A stretch of DNA of 64,000 nucleotides from Candidatus Poribacteria bacterium (GCA_963663765.2 CAXXUA010000015.1:320001-384000); one strand, 5' to 3'. Shown: positions 16,971 to 33,168, numbered from the stretch's first letter. Notes: generated from the sequence alone by a model not told the origin. Translations and numbers: made by a program.

Positions 16971-17080
16971 TTATCACATGAAAATGGTATTACCAAGTAT
17001 GATTAGAGTGTATCAAACAAAAAATAGTCTTCAGTATGTGAAATTGAGTTTAAAAAGAGATTAATTTGGAGAACAATAAT

Positions 17081-18268
17081 ATGAAATCGTATAGAGAGAT
17101 CGTAGAGGAGGCAAAAACTGAAATCCCAGAGGTGACTGTTGCTGATGTGAAAGTTGAGCAGGAGCAAGGGAGTGACTTTGTGCTTCTGGATGTACGTGAT
17201 GAGGATGAATATCGGGCTGGATATATTCCAGATGCTGTTCACGTTACCCGCGGAATGTTGGAATTTTCTGTTGAGAATTATATTCCGGACAGGGATAAAA
17301 AGGTTGTGGTTTATTGTGCTGCAGGACTTCGTTCACTGCTTGCAGCAAAATCGCTTCGTGAAATGGGGTATACAGATACTGTATCTATGGCAGGTGGTTA
17401 TCGTGATTGGACAGCAGCTGGGTTACCTACAGCACAAGATAAACCGATGTCACATGAACAACTTGACAGATATAGCAGACATTTTATGTTAACCGAAGTC
17501 GGTGAACAAGGTCAGGCAAAGTTGCTGGATGCAAGGGTTTTACTTGTCGGTGCTGGTGGGTTAGGGTCTCCTGCAGGTGTTTACCTTGGAGCAGCTGGAA
17601 TTGGTCACATGGGTGTTATAGACTCTGATGTGGTGGAGTTAAGCAATCTACAACGCCAGATTCTACACCGCACTGAGGCGGTCGGTACACCAAAGGTTCA
17701 ATCTGCAACAACGACCATAAAATCACTAAATCCGGATGTTGAGATTACACCGTATAACCTTCGTTTGACCGCAGACAATGTTGAAGAGATCTTTTCTGAA
17801 TATGACCTGATTGTTGATGGGTGTGATAACTTTGCTACACGTTTCCTTGTGAATGATGCAGCAGTGTTTATGAATAAACCGATAGTACATGGCAGTATTT
17901 TTCAGTTTGAGGGACAGGTTACTTTGTTTAAACCGAATGAAGGTCCGTGTTACCGATGCATGTATCCGACTCCGCCGCCACCCGGTTTGGTTCCAAGCTG
18001 AAGTGAAGCAGGTGTCCTGGGCGTGCTCCCAGGTGTAATTGGTGTGATGATGGCAACGGAAGCGATTAAGTATATCATCGGTATTGGTGAACCGCTTATT
18101 GGTAGACTTATACTTTATGAAGCACTCAGTATGACCTATCGCGAGATGAAAGTTCCTCGTGATGAGAATTGCCCGATCTGTGGTGAGAATCCGAGTATAA
18201 CAAAACTCATAGACGATTATGATGCGGCTGCGGAGAATCCTGAAACTTTTGCACCCGCTGCTGATTGA
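17081..18268 (+). CDS. moeB: Rhodanese-MoeB/ThiF fusion adenylyltransferase, probable selenoprotein (TGA at 17999-18001)
   Basis: Rhodanese YCAAGLRS; ThiF RYSRH, GAGGLGS, SNLQRQ, CYRC; reads PPPPGLVPS-TGA-SEAGVLGVLPGVIG in frame through to CPICG; GGAG RBS before ATG 17081. Confidence 0.88.
18016..18033 (+). promoter_or_regulatory. Putative bacterial SECIS hairpin
   Basis: CCTGGG-CGTGCT-CCCAGG stem-loop; the loop starts 21 nt after the UGA and has GU at loop positions 2-3. Confidence 0.65.
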
Positions 18269-18297
18269 TAATAGGTGAATTTCAGTTTAGGAACTTA

Positions 18298-19395
18298 ATG
18301 TCAAAAAATTTAAGTACCCAAGAACCGGAAATACTTAGCTTTTCCGACATCCCGATTGAACCCTTTCCGGACCGAAGCACACGCTGGTTGTTCGAAGACA
18401 AAGAGTACGTCCGGGGCCTGGTAGACATCCTTGCAAGCGAATTGGCGGCGTGTATTGATTTCAGTCGCTTATCGCAAATTAACAGGAGTTTTATACCCGA
18501 CACGTTACGCGAGCAAGAGTCTGATATGGTGTTTACCGCGCCGTTTCAGACTGAATCTGGAACAGATGAGCTGTTAATTTATATCCTCATTGAACATCAA
18601 TCCACGGTTGACCCGATAATGGGTTTCCGGGTGCTGTTTTACATGATGCAGATTTGGGATTTCCAACGTAGAGGATGGGAGTCTGAGAATGTGCCCAAAA
18701 GTCAGTGGCGTTTCCGACCAATCCTCCCAATTGTGTATTATACAGGCGAAAAGCGATGGAGTAACCCACTTACACTTGATGCGATAATAGATATGCCGGA
18801 TGTGCTCGCGAGGTTTGTTCCAAAATTTGATATGCTGTTTCTCAGTGTTAATGATACCGATGTAACGCACCTAAAGGAAACTGACCAGCCATTAGGGTGG
18901 TTGTTAACAGTTCTTCAAAAGGAAAATGCGGACGAGGAAACGCTAATTGATGCATTGCTTGATACGTTTTCACACTTCGACACACTGGAAGAGGAATACG
19001 CACCACAGCGGCGTAAAGCGATGATCTATCTCATCTTGTTCATACTACATCGCCGCCCTCCTGAAGAACACAAAAATTTGATTACACTCATTGATCAGAG
19101 AACACACGATATGGAGGTAGAAACCATGGCACAATCAATCATTGAAATTACCAAAGAAGAAGGTAGAGAAGAAGGAAGAGAAGAAGGTAGAGAAGAAGGA
19201 AGAGAAGAAGGTAGAACACAAGCAAAACGGGAGTCAATCATAAAACTGATACAATCCCGATTTGATGTTCTCCCTGAGGCTGTTGCCACTGAGATTGATT
19301 CGATACAGAGTCTTTCCCACCTCGATTCGATCTTTGATAAAGCATTGACCGCAGAAACAATTGATGAAATTGGGTTGCAAAACAACGACAAGTAA
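18298..19395 (+). CDS. Rpn/YhgA-family PD-(D/E)XK nuclease (recombination-promoting nuclease / putative transposase)
   Basis: SFIPDTLREQESDMVF, YILIEHQS, PIVYYTG, C-terminal (EEGR)5 repeat; AGGA RBS before ATG 18298. Confidence 0.92.
   Translation: MSKNLSTQEPEILSFSDIPIEPFPDRSTRWLFEDKEYVRGLVDILASELAACIDFSRLSQINRSFIPDTLREQESDMVFTAPFQTESGTDELLIYILIEHQSTVDPIMGFRVLFYMMQIWDFQRRGWESENVPKSQWRFRPILPIVYYTGEKRWSNPLTLDAIIDMPDVLARFVPKFDMLFLSVNDTDVTHLKETDQPLGWLLTVLQKENADEETLIDALLDTFSHFDTLEEEYAPQRRKAMIYLILFILHRRPPEEHKNLITLIDQRTHDMEVETMAQSIIEITKEEGREEGREEGREEGREEGRTQAKRESIIKLIQSRFDVLPEAVATEIDSIQSLSHLDSIFDKALTAETIDEIGLQNNDK
19126..19395 (+). CDS. Putative intragenic small protein (RpnS-type antitoxin), 89 aa
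   Basis: GGAGGT at 19113-19118, 7 nt before in-frame ATG (MAQSIIEITKEEGR...). Confidence 0.6.
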   Translation: MAQSIIEITKEEGREEGREEGREEGREEGRTQAKRESIIKLIQSRFDVLPEAVATEIDSIQSLSHLDSIFDKALTAETIDEIGLQNNDK

Positions 19396-19425
19396 TACAA
19401 TTAAATAGTGAAACAGAAGCAGTGG

Positions 19426-19981
19426 ACCTAAAGGAAACTGACCAGCCATTAGGGTGGTTGTTAACAGTTCTTCAAAAGGAAAATGCGGACGAGGAAACGC
19501 TAATTGATGCATTGCTTGATACGTTTTCATACTTCGACACACTGGATGAGGAATACGCACCACAGCGGCGTAAAGCGATGATCTATCTCATCTTGTTCAT
19601 ACTACATCGCCGCCCTCCTGAAGAACACAAAAATTTGATTACACTCATTGATCAGAGAACACACGATATGGAGGTAGAAACCATGGCACAATCAATCATT
19701 GAAATTACCAAAGAAGAAGGTAGAGAAGAAGGTAGAGAAGAAGGTAGAACACAAGCAAAACGGGAGTCAATCATAAAACTGATACAAGAGAAGAAGGTAG
19801 AACACAAGCAAAACGGGAGTCAATCATAAAACTGATACAATCCCGATTTGATGTTCTCCCTGATGCTGTTGCCACTGAGATTGATTCGATACAGAGTCTT
19901 TCCCACCTCGATTCGATCTTTGATAAAGCATTGACCGCAGAAACAATTGATGAAATTGGGTTGCAAAACAACGACAAGTAA
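19426..19981 (+). pseudogene. Near-identical duplicate of the Rpn C-terminal half, frameshifted
   Basis: Repeats 18869-19395 with a few substitutions, two fewer 12-bp EEGR units and a 53-bp tandem duplication (19735-19787 / 19788-19840); internal ATG 19683. Confidence 0.85.
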
Positions 19982-20011
19982 TACTATTAAATAGTGAAAC
20001 AGAAGCAGCGG

Positions 20012-20562
20012 ACCTAAAGGAAACTGACCAGCCATTAGGGTGGTTGTTAACAGTTCTTCAAAAGGAAAATGCTGATATAGAAGCACTAAGCAAAGCCTTG
20101 TTTGATGCGGTGCCGCACGTTAAACATCTACGTAAGATGATCGCTTATTTGGTCTTGTTAATTTTACATCGGCGACCTGCTGAAGAACATAAGGACTTAA
20201 TACGACTTGTTGAACAACAGTCACACAATATAAAGGTAGAAAATATGGCAAGAACAATGGCAGAAGTTCTCATAGAACAAGGCTTTGTAGAAGGCTATGC
20301 AAAAACCATAGCTGAAAGTGTAGCAAAGGGTATAGAACCAAATTTAGCACATGGTGTAAAGCTTGGCATAGAGCAAGGTAAAATCTTAGCAAAACAGGAA
20401 AACATTATCAAAGTACTATACTCCCGATTTAGTGCTATTCCTGATCCTGTTAGAAGCAAGATTCACTTGATACATGACATTGCTCGCCTTGATACTATTT
20501 TTGACAAAGCATTGACCGCAGAAACAATTGATGAAATCAAGCTGCAAAACGACGATAGTTAA
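20012..20562 (+). CDS. Divergent Rpn C-terminal cassette; probable small ORF from ATG 20245 (105 aa)
   Basis: Shares about 60 bp with rpn, diverges, then reconverges at FDKALTAETIDEI; AAGGT before ATG 20245 (MARTMAEVLIEQG). Confidence 0.65.
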
Positions 20563-20612
20563 CAGTTTGCGTAAGTACTATGGACGTACTTTAAAAGAGA
20601 GGAAGCCTGTCT

Positions 20613-23288
20613 ATGCCGAAAAAACCTATTAACCATTATGAACATACCGACAAACTACCCAATAACCCGACCCAAGAACTGAGCGGTTTTGCTGAAAACG
20701 ATGACTTTGCACCGACACGATACCCGCGCGATGTTGCACTTGACCCGCAATTAGTTTGGAAAGGCAAAGACCAACAGAACGATGCCGATCTTGAGGTGCC
20801 AGCAGTCCCTATCTACATTTAGGAACATATTCAACCGCAAGCTATTAGTGAAGTACTTCGCGCACAACAACAGAAAGAATCGGAACAAATCGGAACGCTT
20901 TTTGAAGGATTCAACGACCTTGACTTTGAGCAGAAAATTGAGTTTTACCAACACGAACAGAACTGGCATAACCGCTTTATCCTTGGCGATTCACTTGCTG
21001 TGATGAACTCTCTCGCCGAAAAAGAGGGATTTAAAAATAGTGTGCAAACTATCTTTTTTGACCCGCCTTATGGTATCAAATTTAGCAGTAATTGGCAGGT
21101 TAGCACCCGAAAACGTGAAGTCAGCGATACAAAAGCAGAAGACGTTACGCCACAACCCGAACAAATTAAAGCATTTCGGGATACATGGAAAAACGGCATC
21201 AACTCTTACCTCACCTATTTACGTGATCGACTTACAATTGCCCGTGAATTGCTCGCGGATAGTGGTAGTATCTTTATCCAAATTAGTGATGAGAACGTTC
21301 ATTTTGTTAGGTGCTTGTTAGATGAAGTGTTCGGAGATACCAATTTTGTTAACACAATCACCTGGACTCGAGGTGGAATGACTTCTTCAGAAGGGTTAGC
21401 TGCAATCTCTGATTATCTGTTATGGTATGCAAAAGACAAAGAACAAATGAAGTACCGTCCTCTTTGGATAAAGTGGGATGAACACACACCAGACCCACTC
21501 TTAAGACATCACACACAAGTTGAATTTCCAGATGGAACACGGCGCAGAATGACGCAAGCAGAAAAAGAAAATCCAGCGTTATTGCCTCAGGGAATAAAGC
21601 GATTTCGAGAATCTCAAGCAACATCACAGACTGCTGGTAGTGCCACCTTTGAGTATGAATTTGAAGGTAATATTTTTATACCTCCCCGTGGAAGAGGTTG
21701 GGCATCAAACCGTGAAGGACTAAACCTTCTTGCTAAGCAGGGAAGACTTGTCAAATCAGGACAGAGAATCAATTACATTCGATACGCTGGCGATTTTCCG
21801 GGACGTGCTATGACCAACATGTGGACAGATACCTCACGTGGAGGTTCTGGAAAAACCTACATTGTAGAGACAAACCCGACAGTTATCCAAAGGTGCATGC
21901 TCATGACAACAGATCCAGGGGACTTAGTCCTCGATCCAACTTGTGGCAGCGGCACAACCGCTTATGTCGCAGAACAGTGGGGAAGACGTTGGATAACAGT
22001 AGATACTTCAAAGGTAGCACTTGCGTTGGCACGTACCCGCCTCATGTCTGCCAAATATCCTTACTATCGCCTTCAAGATGCAGACGACATCAAGAAGGGA
22101 TTTGCCTATAAAACTGCACCGTATGTTAGTCTTTCAGATATGGCAAATAACACAGAGATTGACGACATCCATGCAGAATACGCAGAGAAATTAGATCCGC
22201 TCCGTGCCGAAATGAATCGCCTTCTTGAACAAAATTGGGAAGAGTGGGAGGTACCAACTGAAACCGATACGGAATGGGATACGGAATTTCAGGAACTTCA
22301 TCGTAAATGGCTTGTCCTCAAACGCGAACGACAATTAGCGATGGATGCCTCCACTGCAAAACGCGCCAAAAGTGAGACACTTTACGATCAACCTTATGTG
22401 GATAGAAAACGGGTTCGCGTCACAGGTCCATTCACGGTAGAGAGTTTATCCCCGAATTTTGCTCTTGAGCAAACCGATGCAGAATCCCAAACGTCAATAT
22501 CTTCTGAGAGTGTACAAGAGTATCACCAACATATCATAGAACATCTCAGAACAGCGGGCATACAAAGTGGTTTCAAAGATCAAGGTATCAATTTTGACTG
22601 GATAGAAGAATATCCAGGCGAATGGGTTCATGCTGAAGGCATGTGGGTTGACAAAGAGGAAAAACAACATCACATTGCTATCAGCATTGGTCCACAGTAT
22701 GATACGGTGGGTAAACAGTGGATACGTGAAGCAGCGAAGGAGGCTGTCCGAAAAATCGCAGAATATGACCTACTTATTGTGGCGGGAATCACATTTGAAT
22801 GTTATACTGCTAATGAGGTATCACGAATTGGCCAATTGCCGATACTGCCAGTCAAAATTAGTCCTGAGTTAATGGTGCGTGAACTCAAAAACACGGGTGA
22901 GGGCAATCTGTTTATGGTGTTCGGCGAACCGGATGTGGACATTGTAGAGAATAAAGATGGCACAATCTCTGTTAAACTCTTGGGTGTGGATGTATACGAT
23001 CCTGTGAAGGGGTTACTCCGTTCGGAAACGCCAGAGGACATCGCGTGTTGGTTCATTGATACCGCTTACAACGGCGAGGCGTTTATCGTGCGGCATGCAT
23101 ATTTTACGGGTGAAAACGAACCTTACAAGCAGCTGCAAAAAGCACTCAAAGCAGAAATTAACGAGGAGGCGTGGGTGGCACTATATCGGACAGAAAGCAT
23201 CCCATTTACCAAGCCTGAGTCTGGTAAAATTGCAGTGAAGGTTATCAATCATTATGGTGACGAGGTGATGAAAGAGTATAAGGTTTAG
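20613..23288 (+). pseudogene. Type III RM-like N6-adenine DNA methyltransferase (Mod) interrupted by in-frame TAG at 20820-20822
   Basis: DPQLVWKGKD, VPIYI-TAG-EHIQP, NRFILGDSL, DPPYGI, LDPTCGSGTT, KIAVKVINHYGDEVMK, all in one frame. Confidence 0.85.
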
Positions 23289-23316
23289 ACAAATAGCGTC
23301 AACACGGAGAGAGAAA

Positions 23317-24678
23317 ATGATTACACACATACGAATGAAAAACTTCAAGTCGTGGAAAGATAGCGGTGAAGTTCAACTTGCGCCGTTGACAGGCTTTTTC
23401 GGTACAAATAGTTCTGGGAAGAGTAGTTTGTTGCAAATGCTGCTACTGCTTAAGCAGACAACGGAGCAGGAGAATACCGAAGAAGTTATCTTCTTTGGAA
23501 ACAACGGCTCTTATGTCAATTTAGGTAATTTCCATGAAGTGATTCACGGTCATAGTCAAGAAAATCATCTTGAGTTGGAGTTTGGATATAAACTTCACAA
23601 GACTTATAGTCTTCGATGGAATGTAACGGATAAAGAACCGTGGGAATCAAGAATAGATCGGTTTGCATTTAATACAGTGATTTCTAAAGCAAATGGGAAA
23701 GTAGATGTAAAGAACTTTTCATATGCTGATTCTTCCGGAAGTTGGAAAATTGCCTGGTACATTAAGGAAATAAAGAGATCGGTATATGGCGGTCCCTTAT
23801 TCATTAACGAAGATAGTTTAGGATACGGACAAGTGACAAACTGCTACGGTACTCCAACAACAAAGGATATAGGCTCGTATCAAAGACCAGAGAAAGAATA
23901 TATAAAATTTTTCTCACAACTTTTTGAAAAATTGTTTTTGAATCTATATTATCTTGGACCAACTCGTGTGGATCCACGACGAGACTATAATTGGCAAGGT
24001 ATGCATCCTGAGCATTCTGATCGATGGGGAGATAAAACAATTGACGCGCTTCTCTCTGCGCGTGTGCGAAATTTGAAAACCTCTCATAAGAAAGAAGATG
24101 TTCCAATTGAGGGAAGAATTTCAGATTGGTTACAAAAGATGGACTTAGCCCATTCGTTCTCGCTTAATTGGATAGAAGCACAGGGCAGCAAAACCTATGA
24201 AGTCCGTATCCAAAAAACTCAATCAAGTCCACTTGTTACATTAGTTGATATGGGTTACGGTTTATCTCAATTCTTACCAGTGTTAGTCCTTTGCTACTAT
24301 GCACCAGAAGGTTCAACCTTAATTTTGGAACAACCCGGTATTCACCTTCATCCAATGGTTCAATCCCAACTTGCGGATCTGCTGATAGAGGTTGTCAACG
24401 AAAGGAACCTGCAGATTTTGGTGGAAAGCCACAGTGAACATCTGTTAACTCGTTTACAAAGACGAATCGTCGAAGAAAAGATTGCTGCAGATCAGACTGC
24501 ATTCTATTTTTGCCGTAACAATGATGGTGCTTCCACTATTGAAAAATTAGATGTAGACGAAGCGTCTGGGGATATCAAGAACTGGCCAGAAAACTTTTTC
24601 GGTGATGTGATGGGTGATATGTTTGCGATGACAGACAAACAGGTCGAAAGCATAGCAGAAAAGAGAACGGAGGGTTAA
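23317..24678 (+). CDS. ABC-type (AAA_15/21-like) ATPase with DUF3696-like C-terminus, copy 1
   Basis: Walker A GTNSSGKS, signature-like GYGLSQ, Walker B LILEQP, ESHSEH, terminal NWPENFFG. Confidence 0.88.
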   Translation: MITHIRMKNFKSWKDSGEVQLAPLTGFFGTNSSGKSSLLQMLLLLKQTTEQENTEEVIFFGNNGSYVNLGNFHEVIHGHSQENHLELEFGYKLHKTYSLRWNVTDKEPWESRIDRFAFNTVISKANGKVDVKNFSYADSSGSWKIAWYIKEIKRSVYGGPLFINEDSLGYGQVTNCYGTPTTKDIGSYQRPEKEYIKFFSQLFEKLFLNLYYLGPTRVDPRRDYNWQGMHPEHSDRWGDKTIDALLSARVRNLKTSHKKEDVPIEGRISDWLQKMDLAHSFSLNWIEAQGSKTYEVRIQKTQSSPLVTLVDMGYGLSQFLPVLVLCYYAPEGSTLILEQPGIHLHPMVQSQLADLLIEVVNERNLQILVESHSEHLLTRLQRRIVEEKIAADQTAFYFCRNNDGASTIEKLDVDEASGDIKNWPENFFGDVMGDMFAMTDKQVESIAEKRTEG

Positions 24679-25196
24679 TGGACGCAGTTGTGATTGATAC
24701 GAACGTTTTAGTAGTCGCAAATGGCAAGGCTGCTGCGCCGCAGGCATCCGATAAATGCATCAAACTCTGTCGCGCAAAGCTTGCAGCAATACTTAGAAGT
24801 TCCGAGAAGATATTACTTGATGACAAAAAGCGAATAATTCGAGAGTACAGAAGGAACCTAAATGACAAAGGACGTGGACACGGAGATCGGTTTTGGCTGG
24901 AATTAAAAAGAAGATTTTATAATCCTAAAAGTTATCCTGATACGGTTGTCACGGTTGAAATTACCACGTTAGCAGGAAACGGCACTGAATTTGAGGAATT
25001 TCCTAATGATGACGCGGCACTAAGCGATTTTCATAAAAAAGATAAAAAATTTGTTGCTGTTGCCATTGTTTACCAACGCGACTTTGAAGATGAAGCACCT
25101 ATCCTAAAAGCAGAAGATAGGGGTTGGGATGAATTTAAAACCGCCCTGGCTGCTCATCGTGTTTACGTTCATGCTATCTGTGAGGACAACACCTAA
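24678..25196 (+). CDS. PIN-domain protein (putative RNase), copy 1
   Basis: VVIDTNVL, IREY, DKKFVAVA, EDRGW acidic set; TAATG coupling to the ATPase. Confidence 0.75.
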   Translation: MDAVVIDTNVLVVANGKAAAPQASDKCIKLCRAKLAAILRSSEKILLDDKKRIIREYRRNLNDKGRGHGDRFWLELKRRFYNPKSYPDTVVTVEITTLAGNGTEFEEFPNDDAALSDFHKKDKKFVAVAIVYQRDFEDEAPILKAEDRGWDEFKTALAAHRVYVHAICEDNT

Positions 25197-25333
25197 AGAC
25201 CTTTTGATATAAGATAACGTTGGAACACTGTTATGCAGAGACCTATAAAAAATCTTGCACCGTGTGCTAAATGTGCGTCTATCCTACTTAATTGTCTGAA
25301 TCGCGAATTATACCGATCATGAGGAAAGGAAAA

Positions 25334-26656
25334 ATGATTACACATATACGAATGAAAAACTTCAAGTCGTGGAAAGATAGCGGTGAGGTTCAACTTGCCC
25401 CGTTGACGGGCTTTTTCGGGACAAATAGTTCTGGGAAGAGCAGTCTGTTGCAGATGCTGTTATTGCTTAAGCAGACAACGGAGCAGGAGGATGCGGAAGA
25501 AGTTATCTTCTTCGGTAATGAAAATTCCCTTGTCAATCTTGGTTATTTCCATGAAGTTATTCATGGGCATCAAGAGGATGAAGAACTTGAGTTAGAGTTT
25601 GGGTGTAAATTCCCAGAATCAATGACAATCAGAATCACCCAATATAGGCTGGAGCCAGATGAAGTTAAATTTGATTCTTTCAATTTTGAGACTACTATCA
25701 AGAAATATGGTAATTCACAGGATGTCAATCGTATTTGTTACGATATCGGAGGAAAGGGAATTAATAAAATAAAGTTAGAAGGTAACGAAATTTCCTATTG
25801 TGGCAAACGCCTCTTCACGGGTACTTATAAAAACTGCTATAGTATAGAAGAGACAACGCAAGCTTTTCCAGGTTCAAACGAATCATTTTACTTGCTTTCG
25901 TCTAAATTTGAGGAGCTTTTTTCACATGTTTTTTATCTGGGACCAACCCGCAAACATCCACAACGCTACTATCATTGGGAGGGTGATTTTCCTGAAACTC
26001 CCGGACAGTGGGGTGGTCAGACAATTGATGCTCTTCTCTCCGCTCGTATAGATCAGCGAACGACCCCTTATAAAGCAAAAAATGTCCCAATTGAGGAACG
26101 AATCTCAGCATGGTTGCAAAAAATGGAATTAGCGTACGCCTTTGAATTTGCACGGAGCGGTCCACGGGATAACAAAAACTATGAATTCCGAATCCAAAGG
26201 GGGCCGAAAAGTATTAAAGTGACATTGGCAGACATAGGTTATGGAGTTGCACAATTTCTTCCTGTTCTGGTTCTGAGTTATTATGTTCCGATCGGATCCA
26301 CGCTGATCCTTGAAGAACCTGGGACTCATCTTCATCCCAAAGCACAAGCTGACATCGCAGATCTCTTGATAGAGGTTGTCAATGAACGGAAACTACAGAT
26401 TTTAGTAGAAAGCCATAGTGAACACCTGTTAACTCGCCTGCAACGAAGAATTGCAGAAGAAAAGATTAGCAGTGAACAAACTGCCCTCTATTTTTGTCGG
26501 AACAATGAAGGCGTTTCTAATATTGAACGTTTAGAAATGGATGAATTTGGTAACATAGAAAACTGGCCAGAAAACTTTTTTGGCAATGAGATGGGAGATC
26601 TGTTCGCAATGACTGATGCGCAAAGGGAACGTCAAAAGAGTGCGGAGGGTGAATGA
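25334..26656 (+). CDS. ABC-type ATPase with DUF3696-like C-terminus, copy 2
   Basis: First 52 aa identical to copy 1; same motifs; AGGA RBS before ATG 25334. Confidence 0.88.
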   Translation: MITHIRMKNFKSWKDSGEVQLAPLTGFFGTNSSGKSSLLQMLLLLKQTTEQEDAEEVIFFGNENSLVNLGYFHEVIHGHQEDEELELEFGCKFPESMTIRITQYRLEPDEVKFDSFNFETTIKKYGNSQDVNRICYDIGGKGINKIKLEGNEISYCGKRLFTGTYKNCYSIEETTQAFPGSNESFYLLSSKFEELFSHVFYLGPTRKHPQRYYHWEGDFPETPGQWGGQTIDALLSARIDQRTTPYKAKNVPIEERISAWLQKMELAYAFEFARSGPRDNKNYEFRIQRGPKSIKVTLADIGYGVAQFLPVLVLSYYVPIGSTLILEEPGTHLHPKAQADIADLLIEVVNERKLQILVESHSEHLLTRLQRRIAEEKISSEQTALYFCRNNEGVSNIERLEMDEFGNIENWPENFFGNEMGDLFAMTDAQRERQKSAEGE

Positions 26657-26855
26657 ACGCTGTTATTGTAGATACGAATGTAATCGTGATTGCAAATGGT
26701 GTTGCACAACATGCCTCTGCAGACTGTATAGAACGTTGTCAGGATAGACTTGAGCAGATTTTCAACCATCATGAAATCGTTGTTGTTGACGACAGATGGC
26801 GAATTCTTGGGGAGTACAATCGTCATACAGACCCAAACTCCCGAAAAGGAATTGG

Positions 26856-28170
26856 CAGGGTTATTTAGTTTTAAAAACTCTCAGTTATCAAGTTAACTGC
26901 GAGTTTAGGTTTTGAAGCTAAGTATTTTATCTCATCTGCTATACGCGTTATCCCAGCAAATCGCAACACTGCTAATGCTGTATTTCGCAAAGCAGCCATG
27001 ATTTGTGGAATAGCACCGCATCGGACAGACGATGCGTCTTCTCCAAGTTGTGTATCACGCATCCAATGCGACTTGTTCTCTATTGACCAATGCCCACGGC
27101 GTAGCTCAAGTAAACGTTGGGCAGAAGTTTCTTCGGGTGTCAGACTTGTAATACCATAATGGATTTTGGTTTTTTCTTCTCCTGTTTTCGTATTTTTGTA
27201 AGTATAACGATATTGGAACACTTGTGCTATACCTGGCCAATCCAGATATGCGTTGAGACTTGTGCTTGCTTTCAAACACCTTGTCTCTATTCTACCATGT
27301 GATTTTTCAGAAGTCTCGTGAGTGTAAATAGGGGCTCCCAATTTAGGATGTGGTGTGTTATCAGAAAGCGTGTCTGGAACGTCTTGAAAGAGTTTTTGGA
27401 TCTCATCGTAAAGGTCCGGTTGGTTCTTTTTGACAGGGAGCACATAGTCTCCATTACCCTCTATGATGGCGTGGCAGAAAGGTCGCTGTGTCAAAAGTGC
27501 GTCTGTTGTGATGACTTTACCACTCACATCAAAGTTTTTGAGGATCTCTGTTGAGATCGGTATTTCGTTGGTTTTATCACTGACACCTTTTTGTGTAAGT
27601 GTGACGCCTAACTCATGAGACACAACAGAGAGTAAATGGCTTATTGTCGCACCACTTTTCTTACTGGCACGCATCGTTTTACCGTCTATAGCGACTGCGT
27701 CAAGACAACCTTCTAAATCAGGTCGACTTTGACAAACGTCTTCTACCCAGTCTGTAAATGTCTTTTCAACAGCATCAGCATCTAAATCTTTTAGAACATT
27801 ATGTATTGTTGCGGGACAAGGTGTTTTCTTGTGTGTAAAACCGAGTGTTCTTGCGAGGTCTGGTTGGGTTCGGGCCCAAGTTGCGATGGATGTATATCCT
27901 TTATGTCCAGTCATAAAACCAATAATGTTAAGTCCGATGATTGATTTCAATGGGTGTCGTTTTCCTTTATTGTTGCGCGGGTCTTGGATTTCTGCTAATC
28001 TATCTAACAAGTGTCGAGAGTTTTTCTCTGGCATTTTTCACCTCAAAGGTAAGATTTTTTAGGTGAAGTATAGCAGATATAGCGCGATAAATCACGCTAT
28101 ATCTGCATATCCAAAAATATTAACGATTGTGATAAAAAACAACCAAAACTCCTAAAACTAAATAACCCTG
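26856..28170 (-). mobile_element. ISAs1-family insertion sequence, 1315 bp
   Basis: 18-bp perfect IRs CAGGGTTATTTAGTTTTA; 9-bp target duplication AGGAATTGG (26847-26855, 28171-28179). Confidence 0.95.
26871..28034 (-). CDS. ISAs1-family DDE transposase
   Basis: DPR..GKRH, AIDGKT, KTNEIP, TTDALLTQ, VKKNQP, HGRIETR, RGHWSIEN..HW.RD..GED. Confidence 0.96.
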   Translation of the reverse strand: MPEKNSRHLLDRLAEIQDPRNNKGKRHPLKSIIGLNIIGFMTGHKGYTSIATWARTQPDLARTLGFTHKKTPCPATIHNVLKDLDADAVEKTFTDWVEDVCQSRPDLEGCLDAVAIDGKTMRASKKSGATISHLLSVVSHELGVTLTQKGVSDKTNEIPISTEILKNFDVSGKVITTDALLTQRPFCHAIIEGNGDYVLPVKKNQPDLYDEIQKLFQDVPDTLSDNTPHPKLGAPIYTHETSEKSHGRIETRCLKASTSLNAYLDWPGIAQVFQYRYTYKNTKTGEEKTKIHYGITSLTPEETSAQRLLELRRGHWSIENKSHWMRDTQLGEDASSVRCGAIPQIMAALRNTALAVLRFAGITRIADEIKYLASKPKLAVNLITESF

Positions 28171-28509
28171 AGGAATTGGTGATATGTTTGTAAAAATGCT
28201 ACTGCGAAATCAGAAGAACCCGAATGTCTGTACAATGGTGCATATTACCTCATTAGCAGGAAACGGGACCGATTTTGAAGAATTTCCTACTGACAATGCC
28301 TTATGCAGTTTTGACCCAGACGATAGAAAATTCATCGCTGTTGCCCTTGCACATCAGCGAGACGCTGAAGAAACCCCAACTATTTTATTAGCAATAGACA
28401 GAGGTTGGCTTGAATTTATGTCCGCGCTGGCAAGCCACGGAGTCACCGTTGACCTTATCTGTAAAAAAGACATCCAACGTCCACGTCAAGATTAAAAGAA
28501 GGTATTCAA

Positions 28510-31500
28510 ATGGCAAAAGTCACTATAGAAAATCCTGTTATCAACAGTCCTTTTGAGAAACCGCAACGACATTTTGTCTTTACACAGCGCGGGATTACTG
28601 AGGATATTGAAGAAGGAAGACGTCAAAGTGAATACTTTATCCCGATGCCGAAACCGAAAAAACAGTCACAGGACGCGCAAATGAAACTTCTTCCCGACCC
28701 AGAAGTACGGGAGGCGAACATGTTTATAAACAGAGTGCGTGCCCAAGTAACAGCATGGAGGAACAATGGTTATCCTGGTGTAACCCCAACAACAAGACGT
28801 TTGCTTGAATATTGGAACAAGCCTGAAAACGAACCACGTCTCTTTTTCTGTCAACGCGAAGCAGTGGAAACCGCTATCTATCTGAATGAATGTGAAAACA
28901 AAAATCGCAGTGATTCATTCCATAAACAACTTTTGACTGCGAACAATGAAGCAAACCCTGATCTATACCGAGTTGCATTCAAGATGGCAACGGGCTCCGG
29001 TAAAACGGTAGTAATGGGAATGCTTATCGTGTATCACACGTTGAACAAAAGAGTGAATTCCCGAAGCGAACGTTATGCTGATGCATTTCTTATCGTCACA
29101 CCTGGTGTAACAATTCGTGACCGTTTGCAGGTACTCCTTCCTGAAAACCCTGAAAACGACTACCAAAAAATGAATTTATTACCTCATGGGGACTATGATA
29201 CTCTCTGTCAAGCTAAAATAGCGATTACAAATTATCACGCTTTTCAAACTAGAAAAAAGGAAAAATTGAGCAAAGTAAGCGAACAAGTTCTCGGAAAAGA
29301 GAGTGCAAATAATTTCAGAGAAACTCCAGATGAGATGGTTGTGAGAGTCTGTCGTAGTCTTGGTAGAAAGAAAAACATAATTGTTATGAATGACGAAGCA
29401 CATCACTGTTTCCATCGAAAAAATGATACGGAATCTGAGTTAACGCAGGACAATCCGCGTTTATGGATAAGTGGACTTGATGCTGTGAAAGCAAAAATCG
29501 GTATTAAAACCGTTTACGATTTATCTGCAACACCATTCTTTCTGAGCGGTTCGGGGTATTCAACCACTACCCAGAGTGGAAAGAAACTCAAAGAAGGTGT
29601 TCTATTTCCGTGGGTCGTATCAGATTTTGCATTGATAGATGCAATAGAAAGTGGCATCGCAAAGGTGCCGCGCGTTCCTGTTGCAGACGATACAATGGCA
29701 AGTGATCCGATTTATCGCCGCCTGTGGGACATCGTTGGAACGAAACTTAAAGGAATAACAACCGATGGGGAACCGCAGCTGCCACAAGAATTGGAGACAG
29801 CACTCCAAAGCCTCTATACCAATTATGAAAAAGCGTATGACTTATGGCAGAAAAACCCACACGGATTGACACCGCCTGTCATGATAGTTGTTTGCAATAA
29901 CACAAGGGTATCCAAACTTGTTTACGATTGGATTGCCGGATGGGAAAAAGTAACTACTGATGGAGAAAAGGTAATAGAAAAAGGAAATTTGCCGATTTTC
30001 AACAATGAGGAGAACGGTGAGTGGAGTGAAAAGTTAAGCACATTGCTTATTGACAGCAAACAGTTGGAGTCTGGTGAGGCATTAAAAGGCGAGTTTAAAA
30101 AAGCCTCCAAAACACAAATTGAACAGTTCATGCACAAGATGAACGTAGAAAAAGTTACAGATGAGGATTTGTTACGTGAAGTGCTAAATACTGTTGGAAA
30201 AAAGGATAAACTTGGCGAAAAAATTAAATGTGTTGTGTCAGTATCCATGTTAAGTGAAGGATGGGATGCAAGGCGGGTAACGCATATCCTTGGCGTACGT
30301 GCATTTAGTACACAGTTGCTCTGTGAACAGGTTGTCGGGAGAGGTTTGCGCCGTTCTACTTATGATGTCGAAAAGACAACTATCCAAATTAACGAAAATG
30401 AGATAAACTTGGAAACTTTTCCGCCAGAATACGCTGAAGTTTATGGGGTACCGTTCTCATTTATCCCTGCCACTGGTAGTGGGAAGGCAATACAACCTAA
30501 TCCTGTGACAGAAGTTAAGGCGTTACCTGAAAGAAAGGCAAAGTGCGAAATCACATTTCCGAGACTTGTTGGCTATCATCCGTGCCTCCCATCTGAAAAG
30601 TTGGATGCCAATTTTACTGAAGATTCTCGCTATGAGCTTTCTACAGCAGAGATTCCGTCACGTATAGAAATTGAGGCAATTACTGGCTCGGTAATAGAGG
30701 TTGAATCACCTTATCTGAAGAAGTTCCGACTGCAAGAAACCGAGTTTTACCTTGCCAAAGTACTTATGGATAATTACTTATGTGACACTGAGAAAGATGC
30801 GAAATGGTGGCTTTTTCCAGAACTGCTTCGTATCACGCGGCGATGGATGAAAGACTGTGTTACCTATAAAGACAACACACATCCCCAGTTTTTTCATATT
30901 GGCGAAATCGCACGGAAGGCGGCATTTCGGATTCACATGGGAATTCTCAACGCAGAAAAACAATCTGAAAACGAAGATTTTAAAAATAATGGTTCAGAGA
31001 AAACATTCATCCCGATTTTTTCCCAATCCTCTCGTCTTAAAGGGCGTACGGGTTCAACGACAGATGTCCTATTTGAAACCTCACGCCCCACATGGGAAAC
31101 AAAACCTGACAAATGTCACATTTCGCATGTTGTAGCTGACACAGAATCTTGGGAGCAGAAGACCGCGCAAGCACTGGAGCAAATGGATGAGGTAGTTACT
31201 TATGCCAAAAATCACAATTTGGGTTTCACGATTCCATGCATCAATCACAACGGGGAAAGTCGTCAATATGTTCCTGACTTTATCACCCGCATTCTAAGCG
31301 GAGAGAGCGGTTCCACTGATGGTAATGTCAACCTGATTCTTGAGGTCTCTGGCATGCCGAGGGAGGATAAAGTTCAGAAGGTCAACACGATCAAAAATAT
31401 GTGGTTACCAGCAGTGAACGGTAGTAGCGAGTTTGGAAAATGGGATTTTCTTGAAATCACCGATCCGTGGAACATACAAAACACTATCCGCCAATATCTA

Positions 31501-31518
31501 AACCTAAATGCGGCGTAA
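28510..31518 (+). CDS. Type III-like restriction endonuclease subunit (Res; SF2 helicase plus PD-(D/E)XK nuclease)
   Basis: FFCQREAVET, MATGSGKT, DEAHHC, SEGWD, QVVGRGLRR, C-terminal YVPDF...ILEV. Confidence 0.9.
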   Translation: MAKVTIENPVINSPFEKPQRHFVFTQRGITEDIEEGRRQSEYFIPMPKPKKQSQDAQMKLLPDPEVREANMFINRVRAQVTAWRNNGYPGVTPTTRRLLEYWNKPENEPRLFFCQREAVETAIYLNECENKNRSDSFHKQLLTANNEANPDLYRVAFKMATGSGKTVVMGMLIVYHTLNKRVNSRSERYADAFLIVTPGVTIRDRLQVLLPENPENDYQKMNLLPHGDYDTLCQAKIAITNYHAFQTRKKEKLSKVSEQVLGKESANNFRETPDEMVVRVCRSLGRKKNIIVMNDEAHHCFHRKNDTESELTQDNPRLWISGLDAVKAKIGIKTVYDLSATPFFLSGSGYSTTTQSGKKLKEGVLFPWVVSDFALIDAIESGIAKVPRVPVADDTMASDPIYRRLWDIVGTKLKGITTDGEPQLPQELETALQSLYTNYEKAYDLWQKNPHGLTPPVMIVVCNNTRVSKLVYDWIAGWEKVTTDGEKVIEKGNLPIFNNEENGEWSEKLSTLLIDSKQLESGEALKGEFKKASKTQIEQFMHKMNVEKVTDEDLLREVLNTVGKKDKLGEKIKCVVSVSMLSEGWDARRVTHILGVRAFSTQLLCEQVVGRGLRRSTYDVEKTTIQINENEINLETFPPEYAEVYGVPFSFIPATGSGKAIQPNPVTEVKALPERKAKCEITFPRLVGYHPCLPSEKLDANFTEDSRYELSTAEIPSRIEIEAITGSVIEVESPYLKKFRLQETEFYLAKVLMDNYLCDTEKDAKWWLFPELLRITRRWMKDCVTYKDNTHPQFFHIGEIARKAAFRIHMGILNAEKQSENEDFKNNGSEKTFIPIFSQSSRLKGRTGSTTDVLFETSRPTWETKPDKCHISHVVADTESWEQKTAQALEQMDEVVTYAKNHNLGFTIPCINHNGESRQYVPDFITRILSGESGSTDGNVNLILEVSGMPREDKVQKVNTIKNMWLPAVNGSSEFGKWDFLEITDPWNIQNTIRQYLNLNAA

Positions 31519-32356
31519 ATACCGACTCCTTATCTTACTTTCCCCTGTTATTCTCTGGTTATTTTGTTTCTTTTTCCTTCCCCTTATCTCAGTCTTCATC
31601 TATAGTTTTTTGGAACGTGGCACGTATGGTGGAGTACGATGGATATTCACATTGGAAAATTATCAAAGTATTTTGGATGGTGTCTATATTGGCATTTTCT
31701 GGCGATCAATATCAACAGCATTGGTTTGCACAGTCATCTGCTTATTACTTGGATATCCGTTTGCATATTATCTTGCATATTACCGTCCAAAGTTTCGGAA
31801 CATCCTGTTGCTTCTTGTTGTTGTGCCGTTTTGGATAAACTTTCTAATTCGTACTTATGCGTGGATATTAATTCTACGGACAGAAGGACTTTTGAATAGT
31901 TTCCTATCCTTACTTATTCCAAGTGTTCAACCTTTAGAAATTCTAAATACACCTTTCGCTGTGCAGATTGGTTTGGTATATGGATATTTGCCTTTCATGA
32001 TACTTCCACTCTATGCTGCGCTGGAACAATTGGATTTTTCATTAGTTGATGCTGCTAAGGATTTAGGTGCAACTTCCCGTAGAGCGTTTTGGCATGTAAC
32101 ATTTCCGTTGAGTATACCCGGAGTACTTGCAGGTTCAATGTTGGTTTTTATCCCGACAGTAGGTGCATTTCTAACACCTGATATTCTCGGTGGAGGAAAA
32201 GTAATTTTTGTTGGAAATGTCATTGAACTTCAATTCAAAAGTTTCCGAAATTTTCCATTTGGTGCTGCACTATCTTTTGTACTTATGGGGATCGTGTTTA
32301 TGGGAACTGTGGTTTATTTTAAGACTTTGCAGAGAACTGAGTCTATTGAAACATAG
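31508..32356 (+). CDS. potB: Spermidine/putrescine ABC transporter permease PotB-like
   Basis: PFWINFLIRTYAW, YLPFMILPLY, EAA-like loop DAAKDLGA. Confidence 0.85.
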   Translation: MRRKYRLLILLSPVILWLFCFFFLPLISVFIYSFLERGTYGGVRWIFTLENYQSILDGVYIGIFWRSISTALVCTVICLLLGYPFAYYLAYYRPKFRNILLLLVVVPFWINFLIRTYAWILILRTEGLLNSFLSLLIPSVQPLEILNTPFAVQIGLVYGYLPFMILPLYAALEQLDFSLVDAAKDLGATSRRAFWHVTFPLSIPGVLAGSMLVFIPTVGAFLTPDILGGGKVIFVGNVIELQFKSFRNFPFGAALSFVLMGIVFMGTVVYFKTLQRTESIET

Positions 32357-32376
32357 AGTAAGGACATATTACTGTT

Positions 32377-33168
32377 ATGTCTACAATATCATCAAAAAGA
32401 TTATTTGAAACTAATGTTGTCATAGTATTTCTATTTCTTTATATTCCTATCATCGTTGTAGTTGTATTCTCATTCAATAGTGGTGATCAGATTTCGGTAT
32501 GGGAAGGTTTTTCATTTGACTGGTATGCAAAATTGTTTAATAATCCTGATGTTTGGAGAGCATGCAAAAACAGTTTGATTATTGCATGTGCTGCGACAAT
32601 CATATCCACAATCATAGGTACAGCGGCTGCAGTAGCATTGAATACATATCGTTTTAGATTACGAAACACAATAATTCACACGTTATATCTACCCATGATA
32701 ATTCCAGATATAGTTTTGGCAATTGCGTTATTAACTTTCTATTCGCAACTCAAACTACCTATTGGATTAACTTCTGTAATTGTCGCCCATATAGTATTTA
32801 ATGTAAGTTATGTAACCATAGTTGTAAGTGCGCGTTTACAGGGATATGACAGTACGGTAGAGGAAGCAGCGCTTGATCTTGGTGCAAACGAATGGCAGAC
32901 ATTTTGGAGAATTACATTTCCAATGATAGCACCTGGAATTATTGGCGGAGCATTACTTGCGTTTACTTTATCAATAGACGACTTTGTCATAACTTTCTTC
33001 ACTGCGGGTGTTGGTAAGACGACACTGTCTGTGCATATTTATAATAGTCTAAAATTTGGTATTACACCAGAACTTAACGCAATTTCAACGATGATGTTAG
33101 TAAACTCAATTGTATTGATTCTTCTATTTGTATGGTTACGCGGTAAGAACACACGTCGTACAATCTGA
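32377..33168 (+). CDS. potC: Spermidine/putrescine ABC transporter permease PotC-like
   Basis: FLYIPI...FSFN, EEAALDLGA, FTLSIDDFVITFF, GITPELNAIST. Confidence 0.87.
   Translation: MSTISSKRLFETNVVIVFLFLYIPIIVVVVFSFNSGDQISVWEGFSFDWYAKLFNNPDVWRACKNSLIIACAATIISTIIGTAAAVALNTYRFRLRNTIIHTLYLPMIIPDIVLAIALLTFYSQLKLPIGLTSVIVAHIVFNVSYVTIVVSARLQGYDSTVEEAALDLGANEWQTFWRITFPMIAPGIIGGALLAFTLSIDDFVITFFTAGVGKTTLSVHIYNSLKFGITPELNAISTMMLVNSIVLILLFVWLRGKNTRRTI

What the first reader, a model, noticed from the sequence alone, without database searches (positions are those of the whole stretch)
23317..28495. Candidate new defence system: tandem ABC-ATPase/PIN-nuclease modules embedded between type III mod and res
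Seen: mod - ATPase1 - PIN1 - ATPase2 - PIN2 - res, all on one strand. Each ATPase is translationally coupled to its PIN gene (TAATG, ATGA), and an Rpn locus lies just upstream. Established: ABC-ATPase sensor plus nuclease effector pairs are a recurring anti-phage design (PARIS AriAB with TOPRIM, Septu PtuAB with HNH), and PrrC is an ABC-ATPase anticodon nuclease that guards a type I RM system from within its operon. I do not recognise a named system made of a DUF3696-type ATPase and a stand-alone PIN RNase inside a type III locus. Inference: a back-up abortive-infection layer in which the ATPase holds the PIN inactive until a phage protein or RM inhibition releases RNA cleavage. No antitoxin gene of the VapB type lies beside either PIN.
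Basis: partly seen in the sequence, partly recalled or inferred. Interest (0 to 1): 0.85.

Follow-up and report, generated by a model that had tools for sequence, protein, structure and literature searches.

The report
Known HEC-03 defence pairs inside restriction locus
The two ATPase-plus-PIN-nuclease gene pairs are real, but they belong to HEC-03, an anti-phage system already described and lab-tested, here sitting in tandem inside a partly broken restriction-modification locus at a defence hotspot shared by many Poribacteria.

Summary
The gene order mod - ATPase1 - PIN1 - ATPase2 - PIN2 - res is real, and so are the TAATG and ATGA overlaps. Two details were missed. PIN2 is split by a 1,315-bp ISAs1-family insertion sequence whose transposase lies on the opposite strand. 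The mod gene carries an in-frame TAG at codon 70.

The system is not new. Both ATPases and both PINs match the PADLOC-DB v2 models of HEC-03 (E 1e-113, 1e-110, 8e-22). HEC-03 is an ABC-ATPase plus VapC-like PIN pair. Payne et al. (bioRxiv 2024) showed that it protects E. coli from phages, needs both genes and is toxic when induced. An AlphaFold model of PIN1 (pLDDT 95) has a PIN fold with the four acidic residues conserved.

The new part is the context. The locus fills one chromosomal site, moeB | ... | ABC-permease genes, in many Poribacteria genomes. That site holds one to three diverged HEC-03 modules, with or without the flanking type III-like mod and res. In the closest res lineage, 14 of 16 loci have a HEC-03 PIN just upstream of res. 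ATPases and PIN clades have re-assorted, and a roughly 100-residue ATPase insert is hypervariable.

Verdict: a known system in a new arrangement and phylum. Interest is modest.

The parts
18265..19395 (+). Rpn/YhgA-like PD-(D/E)xK protein at the left edge of the island. It is conserved upstream of mod in L012, L013 and L036.
   Evidence: PF04754 E 4e-25; homologues at 73-75% identity in the same position
19422..20562 (+). Two small ORFs (19422-19829 and 20044-20562) that resemble the C-terminal part of Rpn, with 12-, 24- and 53-nt tandem repeats.
   Evidence: BLAST assignment to Rpn; tandem repeats; no Pfam or PADLOC hit
20613..23288 (+). Type III-like mod (N6 adenine methyltransferase, 891 codons) with a premature in-frame TAG at 20820-20822. 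It is probably a pseudogene.
   Evidence: PADLOC MTase_III PDLC03632 E 6e-224, PF01555 E 1e-32; N-terminal 69 aa match the same model; best solved relatives are type III Mod proteins (EcoP15I Mod E 4e-16); TAG versus Gln in 10 of 10 homologues
23317..24678 (+). HEC-03 ABC ATPase of module 1. Walker A is GTNSSGKSS, Walker B is LILEQP and the tail is DUF3696.
   Evidence: PDLC04148 E 3.5e-113; NsnB model E 5e-65; AAA_15, AAA_21 and DUF3696; motifs
24678..25196 (+). HEC-03 PIN nuclease of module 1 (clade A), intact. The acidic residues D7, E56, D122 and D147 are present.
   Evidence: PDLC04147 E 8e-22; AF2 pLDDT 95.4; best 41 structural matches are PIN domains, top VapC21 with Z 9.9; conservation
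25334..26656 (+). HEC-03 ABC ATPase of module 2 (440 aa, Walker B LILEEP). It is 58% identical to ATPase1. The first 52 residues are identical, and residues 91-210 are 23-30% identical.
   Evidence: PDLC04148 E 2e-110; 94% identical to the second ATPase of L012
26653..26855 (+). 5' part of the module 2 PIN gene (clade B), codons 1-67 plus 2 nt, cut by the IS.
   Evidence: PDLC04147 positions 3-67, E 1.7e-13; 73% identical to the second PIN of L017
26856..28170 (-). ISAs1-family insertion sequence (transposase gene 26871-28034) with 18-bp inverted repeats. It is flanked by the 9-bp target duplication AGGAATTGG at 26847-26855 and 28171-28179.
   Evidence: NF033564 E 2e-69, DDE_Tnp_1 and DDE_Tnp_1_assoc; ends read; 11 full-length copies at 99-100% identity in the genome
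28180..28495 (+). 3' part of the module 2 PIN gene. Together with the 5' part it gives 519 nt, the same length as PIN1.
   Evidence: PDLC04147 positions 69-154, E 5e-11; 81% identical to the second PIN of L017
28510..31518 (+). Type III-like res (SF2 helicase and endonuclease, 1002 aa), intact. Its stop overlaps the start of the next gene, an ABC-transporter permease (31508-32356).
   Evidence: NF046055 BPTD_3080 family restriction endonuclease, 1041.5 bits against a cut-off of 800; PF04851 E 1e-9; permease PF00528

Best explanation
The region holds two tandem copies of the known anti-phage system HEC-03. Each copy is an ABC-type ATPase with a DUF3696 tail, translationally coupled to a small VapC-like PIN nuclease. 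The copies sit between the mod and res genes of a type III-like restriction-modification system, in a genome most like Candidatus Poribacteria.

Shown here:
- Family membership of all four genes.
- A PIN fold with an intact set of acidic residues in PIN1.
- An ABC ATPase with an intact Walker A motif.
- The two modules are old paralogues (PIN clades A and B), not a recent duplication.
- Module 2 is inactivated by a recent IS insertion, and mod is truncated by a nonsense codon. Only module 1 and res look intact.
- The locus lies in a chromosomal hotspot between moeB and two ABC-permease genes. In related genomes this site carries one to three such modules, with or without mod and res.

Taken from the literature: HEC-03 protects E. 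coli against phages, needs both genes and is toxic when over-expressed.

Inferred mechanism:
- The ATPase oligomer holds the PIN nuclease through its DUF3696 tail, as modelled for the homologous NsnB-NsnC pair of Menshen.
- The hypervariable roughly 100-residue insert after the Walker A helix senses a phage cue.
- ATP binding, more likely than fast hydrolysis, then frees or activates the PIN. The reason is that the catalytic Glu of Walker B is Gln in 56 of 62 family members examined.
- The PIN then cuts RNA and stops the infection, probably at a cost to the cell.
- Several diverged modules in a row would widen the range of cues sensed.
- The modules act independently of the RM enzymes.
For: Family membership and fold:
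- PADLOC HEC-03 models match ATPase1 and ATPase2 at E 3.5e-113 and 2.1e-110. PIN1 matches at 8e-22 and the two PIN2 pieces at 1.7e-13 and 5.3e-11.
- Payne et al. preprint: HEC-03 is an ABC ATPase plus a VapC-like PIN, both genes are required, and IPTG was omitted because of toxicity.
- PIN1 model pLDDT is 95.4. VIA-align ranks 1-41 are all PIN domains, with the top hit VapC21 at Z 9.9, rmsd 3.5 and 126 aligned residues.
- D7, E56 and D147 are at least 90% conserved and D122 is invariant in 140 diverse relatives. Nine of these 140 reach Pfam PIN_3.
- The ATPase profile hits an OLD-family ATPase and Rad50 among solved structures.

Link to Menshen:
- The NsnB model matches at E 5e-65.
- The Menshen paper PMC12065111 models NsnB tetramers that bind the PIN-like domain of NsnC through DUF3696, and reports Walker B DE replaced by EN (passages read).
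- Walker B is EQ in 56 of 62 ATPases.

Diversity of the modules:
- Residues 91-195 of the ATPase show 6-29% mean pairwise identity, against 80-99% in the core.
- There are three PIN clades.
- The ATPase tree needs 12 changes of PIN-clade label. The minimum is 3 and the shuffled mean is 22.4.

Hotspot and independence from the RM genes:
- perm1 lies downstream in 26 of 33 Poribacterial loci and moeB lies upstream in 14 of 33. Of the 33 loci, 21 lack full mod and res, and 4 of those keep relics.

Decay in this genome:
- The IS has 11 near-identical copies in the genome.
Against: - No experiment on this locus exists, and the tested HEC-03 came from another phylum.
- The substrate of the PIN and the trigger are unknown, also in the literature read.
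- The binding mode is inferred by homology only.
- The first PIN model, built from close homologues only, was poor (pLDDT 57). The good model depends on the deeper alignment.
- Foldseek gave PIN hits only at weak E-values (best 0.017).
- Pfam itself does not call PIN1 a PIN domain.
- That Gln sits at the catalytic-Glu position rests on motif alignment, not on a structure.
- The strong linkage with one res lineage (14 of 16) could mean a functional tie to the RM enzymes that the independence reading underrates.
- The ATPase tree was a quick search and may be blurred by recombination inside the gene.
Confidence: 0.85

Rival explanations
1. RM-guard model, the first reader's idea and analogous to PrrC with EcoprrI. 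The ATPase-PIN modules are held silent by the Mod/Res complex and are released when a phage inhibits restriction. The embedding between mod and res would then be functionally required.
For: - In the res lineage closest to the window (at least 65% identity), 14 of 16 loci have a HEC-03 PIN within 1.5 kb upstream of res. One has mod directly upstream and one has neither. None of 14 more distant res loci has a PIN there.
- mod-[module]n-res recurs in 8 fully visible loci.
- All intergenic gaps are short: 28, 137 and 14 nt.
- The Menshen paper reports that 27.9% of Menshen operons lie beside BREX, type I or type III RM genes.
Against: - HEC-03 alone protected an E. coli strain that lacks RM, per the methods passage read.
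- 21 of 33 Poribacterial loci have modules at the same site without full mod or res, and relics show the RM genes were lost while the modules stayed.
- In other phyla the pair sits beside different systems, such as a DrmMI-like methylase with an SNF2 helicase in L050 and L053.
- In this window mod is already truncated.
Confidence: 0.12
2. Addiction or stabilisation module. The ATPase-PIN pair acts mainly as a toxin-antitoxin-like cassette that stabilises the island or hotspot, rather than as a phage sensor.
For: - The PIN is VapC-like.
- Over-expression of HEC-03 is toxic.
- The modules persist at the site while the neighbouring RM genes decay.
Against: - Phage protection over several orders of magnitude was measured for HEC-03.
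- The ATPase insert is hypervariable, as expected for a sensor under an arms race and not for an antitoxin.
- An IS could knock out PIN2 while leaving ATPase2, and this says nothing for addiction.
Confidence: 0.08
3. Decaying, non-functional locus in this genome. The RM system is dead because mod has a nonsense codon, module 2 is dead because of the IS, and module 1 may be silent as well.
For: - TAG at codon 70 of mod. It is present in contigs of three runs.
- IS in PIN2.
- The IS family is active, with 11 copies.
Against: - ATPase1, PIN1, ATPase2 and res keep full-length open frames and all conserved motifs.
- This reading is compatible with the best explanation for module 1.
Confidence: 0.2

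Closest known systems
HEC-03 (Hma-embedded candidate 03; Payne, Hughes, Fineran, Jackson, bioRxiv 10.1101/2024.01.29.577857; PADLOC-DB v2.0.0 models PDLC04148 and PDLC04147)
   Same: It is a two-gene system of an ABC ATPase followed by a small VapC-like PIN protein, without a VapB antitoxin. Both window pairs match both models over nearly their full length. It is also embedded within another multi-gene defence locus.
   Different: Here the host locus is a type III-like RM (mod plus a BPTD_3080-family res), not Hma. The modules stand in tandem (two here, up to three in relatives) and are old paralogues. They occupy a fixed chromosomal hotspot in Poribacteria. The paper calls the ATPase A and the PIN B, whereas the PADLOC model names are the other way round.
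Menshen (NsnABC), especially the NsnB-NsnC core (PMC12065111)
   Same: The ATPase is an NsnB-type ABC ATPase with a DUF3696 tail (NsnB model E 5e-65) and a non-canonical Walker B. The partner begins with a PIN-fold domain. Partner domains are shuffled between loci. It is often found beside RM systems, including type III.
   Different: There is no NsnA (ParB-DUF262) gene. The PIN keeps its acidic catalytic residues and has no C-terminal nuclease domain. In NsnC the PIN-like domain is inactive and a separate effector domain carries the toxicity.
PARIS (AriA/AriB), Septu (PtuA/PtuB), Gabija (GajA/GajB)
   Same: Each pairs an ABC or OLD-type ATPase with a nuclease effector. The AriA, GajA and PtuA models give weaker hits to the window ATPases.
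   Different: The effector families differ (TOPRIM or HNH against PIN). The HEC-03 model scores are far higher than those for AriA (377 against 95 bits).
PrrC with EcoprrI (recalled, not tested here)
   Same: It is an ABC-ATPase-linked RNase encoded inside an RM operon.
   Different: PrrC is a single polypeptide with its own anticodon-nuclease domain inside a type Ic locus, and it depends on the RM proteins. Here the nuclease is a separate PIN protein, and the modules also occur without RM genes.
VapBC type II toxin-antitoxin systems
   Same: They share the PIN fold and acidic active-site residues. The best structural matches are VapC toxins.
   Different: There is no VapB gene. The upstream, translationally coupled partner is a 440-453-aa ATPase. 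Sequence similarity to VapC is not detectable: Pfam gives no hit for PIN1, and the profile search against solved structures gives nothing significant.

Membership tests
HEC-03 | ABC ATPase that matches the HEC-03 ATPase model | tested here: met
   PDLC04148: ATPase1 E 3.5e-113 (377 bits); ATPase2 E 2.1e-110, profile positions 1-452 of 458
HEC-03 | Small PIN protein that matches the HEC-03 PIN model | tested here: met
   PDLC04147: PIN1 E 8e-22, positions 3-153 of 159; PIN2 pieces cover positions 3-67 and 69-154
HEC-03 | ATPase gene directly followed by the PIN gene on the same strand | tested here: met
   Overlaps of 1 nt and 4 nt; 56 of 62 junctions in relatives overlap by 1 or 4 nt
HEC-03 | VapC-like PIN fold with conserved acidic active-site residues | tested here: met
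   AF2 pLDDT 95.4; VIA Z 9.9-8.0 for 15 VapC/PIN chains; D7, E56, D122 and D147 conserved
HEC-03 | Both genes needed for phage defence; toxic on over-expression | not testable with these tools
   Known only for the published representative
Menshen (NsnABC) | NsnA sensor with ParB-DUF262 in the operon | tested here: not met
   No NsnA hit for any ORF between 18265 and 35106 in the PADLOC scans
Menshen (NsnABC) | NsnB-type ABC ATPase with DUF3696 | tested here: met
   PDLC03878 E 5e-65 and 4.5e-64; PF12476
Menshen (NsnABC) | NsnC: inactive PIN-like domain fused to a C-terminal nuclease | tested here: not met
   The PIN proteins are 172 aa, are a single domain and keep D-E-D-D
VapBC toxin-antitoxin | Small VapB antitoxin gene adjacent to the PIN gene | tested here: not met
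   The PIN start overlaps the ATPase stop, and downstream lie a 137-nt spacer or res
Type III restriction-modification | Mod: N6 adenine methyltransferase of the type III family | tested here: met
   PADLOC MTase_III E 6e-224; EcoP15I Mod E 3.8e-16. The gene is interrupted by TAG at codon 70
Type III restriction-modification | Res: SF2 helicase-type restriction subunit next to mod | tested here: inconclusive
   PF04851 ResIII E 1e-9 and NF046055 restriction endonuclease at 1041 bits, but PADLOC REase_III models hit only weakly (E 2e-6). There was no sequence match to solved structures, and the endonuclease motif was not examined
Hma (helicase, methylase, ATPase) | Flanking genes match the Hma models | tested here: inconclusive
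   The six PADLOC hits of res include no Hma model. The mod list shows 25 of 49 hits, none of them Hma, so a weak Hma hit below rank 25 cannot be excluded

The most novel reading that the evidence does not exclude
In Poribacteria, HEC-03 has grown into a polymorphic sensor-effector array that is tied to one lineage of type III-like RM systems. The composite locus is mod-[ATPase-PIN]x1-3-res and sits at a fixed hotspot between moeB and ABC-permease genes. Three PIN clades re-assort with ATPases whose roughly 100-residue insert is hypervariable. The RM layer and a multi-specificity abortive layer would then be inherited and exchanged as one cassette, and perhaps co-regulated. This would be a composite immune locus not described in the papers I could read.
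Probability: 0.35. Interest if true: 0.55.

Novelty: new member of a known kind. Interest (0 to 1): 0.3.

Why it matters
The finding does not add a new defence system, and it should be annotated as HEC-03. It does show three things.
- HEC-03 is also nested in type III-like RM loci. The guilt-by-embedding work, in the parts I read, covered Hma, BREX, DISARM and type I RM.
- In a sponge-symbiont phylum, HEC-03 forms arrays of up to three diverged modules at one chromosomal hotspot.
- ATPase and PIN partners re-assort, while one ATPase insert evolves very fast.

This gives a natural set of variants for asking which part of the ATPase senses the phage, and whether any ATPase can control any PIN. 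The mechanism of HEC-03 and its link to Menshen are still open, and these loci make that question testable.

Tried and rejected
- Complex prediction on ATPase1 plus PIN1, one copy each with alignments A3 and A2, gave no answer (score 0.06, mark 0.32). This is no evidence either way. The expected assembly, an ATPase dimer or tetramer with PIN, exceeded the size limit and was not tried.
- The first AlphaFold run, with 39 close homologues, gave a poor model (pLDDT 57). It was replaced by a run with 140 diverse relatives.
- Sequence searches of the PIN profiles against solved structures found nothing significant.
- Foldseek against the PDB found PIN domains only at E of 0.017 or weaker.
- The ESM Atlas gave only a weak PIN_3 lead, at rank 20 with score 0.91.
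- The promoter and terminator scan of 18000-32500 was at the chance level: 32 found against 30.8 expected, and 14 against 12.1. No operon structure is claimed from it.
- The idea that the two modules are a recent duplication or gene conversion was rejected. The identical 52 N-terminal residues are encoded by DNA that is only 85% identical, and the PINs belong to different old clades.
- The idea that Gln in Walker B is a defect of ATPase1 was rejected. It is the family norm, found in 56 of 62 members.
- No RNA holder was listed among the public runs, so nothing can be said on expression.
- No contig joined across the IS, that is, no empty-site allele, in the four runs laid. Contigs drop rare variants, so this does not show that the allele is absent.
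- Look-ups of earlier scan notes by place and by sequence gave nothing.


Full report
**What is there**

The + strand carries, in order:
- an Rpn/YhgA gene at 18265-19395 (PF04754, E 4e-25);
- two small Rpn-C-terminal-like ORFs;
- mod at 20613-23288;
- ATPase1 at 23317-24678;
- PIN1 at 24678-25196;
- a 137-nt spacer;
- ATPase2 at 25334-26656 (real ATG start);
- PIN2;
- res at 28510-31518.

Two things were missed. First, PIN2 is cut after codon 67 by a 1,315-bp ISAs1-family insertion sequence at 26856-28170.
- Its transposase gene lies on the minus strand (NF033564, E 2e-69).
- It has 18-bp perfect inverted repeats and a 9-bp target duplication.
- The two PIN2 pieces add up to 519 nt, exactly the length of PIN1.
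- The genome holds 11 full-length copies of this IS at 99-100% identity, so the insertion is recent.

Second, mod has an in-frame TAG at 20820-20822, where 10 of 10 homologues have a Gln codon. Contigs from three public runs of two studies cover 20600-23358 without a difference. One of these runs may be the source sample.

**What it is**

Both ATPases match the PADLOC-DB v2 model PDLC04148 at E 3.5e-113 and 2.1e-110. PIN1 matches PDLC04147 at E 8e-22. The two PIN2 pieces match the two halves of that model. These are the models of HEC-03.

I read passages and sections 5 and 7 of Payne et al. (bioRxiv 10.1101/2024.01.29.577857). According to them:
- HEC-03 is an ABC ATPase with a PIN protein similar to VapC.
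- It was found embedded in Hma systems.
- It lowered plaquing of at least two phages by orders of magnitude in an E. coli strain without RM.
- Both genes were needed.
- It was assayed without IPTG because of apparent toxicity.

The paper names the ATPase A and the PIN B. The PADLOC model names are the reverse.

Pfam sees AAA_15, AAA_21 and DUF3696 in the ATPases and nothing in the PINs. I therefore tested the PIN assignment by structure.
- With 39 close homologues the model was poor (pLDDT 57).
- With 140 diverse relatives from a library-wide profile search (1,021 proteins at E up to 0.001; alignment) it reached pLDDT 95.4.
- An exhaustive structural comparison put PIN domains at ranks 1 to 41. 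The top hit was VapC21, with Z 9.9, rmsd 3.5 and 126 residues aligned.
- Foldseek agreed only weakly, with a best E of 0.017.
- D7, E56 and D147 are at least 90% conserved and D122 is invariant. They sit where PIN domains carry their four acidic residues relative to the strands and helices of the model. The canonical placement is recalled.
- Nine of the 140 relatives reach Pfam PIN_3.

**Relation to Menshen**

The ATPases also match the NsnB model of Menshen (E 5e-65). I read passages of the Menshen paper (PMC12065111). It describes the following:
- NsnB is an ABC ATPase with a DUF3696 tail and a Walker B in which DE is replaced by EN.
- NsnC is an inactive PIN-like domain fused to a nuclease.
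- AlphaFold 3 models show NsnB tetramers holding the PIN-like domain through DUF3696.

In the window family, Walker B reads EQ in 56 of 62 ATPases and EE in 5 of them, ATPase2 included. HEC-03 thus looks like a minimal NsnB-NsnC-type core in which the PIN itself is the effector. My own test of binding gave no answer.

**Context in other genomes**

A scan of species-representative genomes found 46 loci.
- 31 are titled Candidatus Poribacteria.
- 2 are titled 'uncultured bacterium'. The PIN of one of them (L022) nests within Poribacterial PIN clade A in the tree. The PIN of the other (L018) was too short to be placed in the tree.
- 13 are from other phyla.

All 46 have the ATPase directly before the PIN.

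Among the 33 Poribacterial-type loci:
- 16 have two or more modules and 4 have three.
- 11 have a full res after the last PIN. Of these, 8 also show mod before the first ATPase, and the other 3 are cut by contig ends.
- One locus (L020) reads mod-module-mod-module-res.
- 21 have no full mod or res.
- None of the 13 loci from other phyla has more than one module.

The flanks show that this is one chromosomal site. The first permease gene that follows res in the window lies just downstream in 26 of the 33 loci. moeB lies upstream in 14 of the 33. Four of the loci without RM genes keep relics of the mod C-terminus right before the ATPase, or relics of res before the permease (L018, L025, L028, L031). 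In those lineages the RM genes were lost while the modules stayed.

Starting from res instead, the NF046055 family is present above its cut-off in 88 of 151 genomes sampled from the phylum. I examined the 30 best loci.
- 16 have res at least 65% identical to the window's. Of these, 14 have a HEC-03 PIN within 1.5 kb upstream, 1 has mod directly upstream and 1 has neither.
- None of the 14 more distant res loci has a PIN there.
- These 30 are the top-scoring loci, not a random sample.

In two Pseudomonadota loci (L050, L053) the pair follows a DrmMI-like methylase, and in L053 also an SNF2 helicase. This fits the published Hma/DISARM-like contexts.

**Evolution of the modules**

The Poribacterial PINs form three well-supported clades.
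- PIN1 is in clade A.
- The PIN2 pieces are closest to clade B, at 73% and 81% identity to the second PIN of L017.
- Order in arrays is mostly A, then B, then C, with exceptions such as L023.

The two window ATPases are 58% identical overall. Residues 1-52 are identical, although the DNA there is only 85% identical, and residues 91-210 are 23-30% identical. Across 47 Poribacterial ATPases, residues 91-195 have 6-29% mean pairwise identity, against 80-99% around the Walker motifs. This region lies after the Walker A helix, where the papers place Insert 1 of ABC ATPases.

On a quick ATPase tree the PIN-clade label needs 12 changes. The minimum is 3 and the shuffled mean is 22.4. One strongly supported group of five closely related ATPases is paired with PINs of all three clades. 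The partners are therefore linked, but they have re-assorted repeatedly.

**How it most likely works**

- Shown: family membership, the PIN fold with acidic residues, the ABC ATPase with Walker A, the tight coupling and the independence of the gene pair from RM genes across genomes.
- From the literature: anti-phage activity, the need for both genes and toxicity.
- Inferred: the ATPase oligomer holds the PIN by the DUF3696 tail; the hypervariable insert senses a phage cue; nucleotide binding releases or activates the PIN, which cuts RNA; tandem diverged modules broaden sensing.

In this genome only module 1 and res look intact.

**Novelty**

Earlier notes of this scan reached the same identification for similar pairs in other genomes. 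These are leads, not evidence.

Four points do not appear in the parts of the two papers I read:
- nesting in a type III-like RM lineage;
- arrays of up to three modules;
- the fixed Poribacterial hotspot;
- the re-assortment of partners.

I searched the paper library for 'HEC-03', 'Hma-embedded', 'guilt-by-embedding' and Poribacteria with defence terms. For HEC-03 itself I found only the preprint and papers that list it. Supplementary tables were closed and may hold type III contexts.

**Scores**

Interest is 0.3. The finding is a new member of a known kind.

Noticed in passing
window 17066-18268: A moeB/moeZ-like gene (rhodanese plus ThiF, PRK08762 at 418 bits) has an in-frame TGA at 17999-18001. 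The codon sits where MoeB proteins carry a conserved Cys before the E-A-G-V-L-G motif (motif recalled). A 6-bp hairpin begins about 12 nt downstream. The genome has selB (361.6 bits, cut-off 242) and an adjacent tRNA-Sec (78.5 bits, gathering score 47). This is probably a selenocysteine-containing MoeB and not a broken gene.
   Followed up: partly
window 18265-20562: The Rpn/YhgA gene is followed by two small ORFs that resemble only the Rpn C-terminal part and carry 12-, 24- and 53-nt tandem repeats. The same Rpn plus short Rpn-like ORF arrangement precedes mod in L013 and L036. It may be a toxin with small partner proteins, but this is untested.
   Followed up: partly
window 26856-28170 and the whole genome: The ISAs1-family IS that splits PIN2 has 11 full-length copies at 99-100% identity plus fragments in the 6.35-Mb genome. 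It is an actively expanding element.
   Followed up: yes
window 31508-31518: The res stop overlaps the start of an ABC-transporter permease gene by 11 nt. In relatives without res, the last PIN gene ends a few tens of bases before the same permease gene. The defence cassette therefore abuts a housekeeping operon in every state of the hotspot.
   Followed up: partly
L020:5959-18201: One Poribacteria genome has mod-module-mod-module-res, with two full mod genes (893 aa each). In L023 and L034 mod is split into two ORFs.
   Followed up: no
ATPase Walker B, window 24316-24333 and relatives: The residue that follows the Walker B acidic residue is Gln, not Glu, in 56 of 62 HEC-03-type ATPases. This resembles the EN dyad reported for Menshen NsnB, and suggests slow or no ATP hydrolysis as a family trait.
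   Followed up: partly
PADLOC-DB v2.0.0 models PDLC04147 and PDLC04148: The model named HEC-03A is the PIN protein and HEC-03B is the ATPase. The preprint text calls the ATPase HEC-03A and the PIN HEC-03B.
   Followed up: yes
PIN family alignment A2 (PIN1 residues 27, 31, 105-110, 168): Besides the acidic residues, the family keeps C27 and C168 (at least 90% conserved) and an E-F-P motif in a 25-residue loop between strand 3 and the next helix. These features are absent from classical VapC and may be a metal site or the ATPase contact.
   Followed up: no
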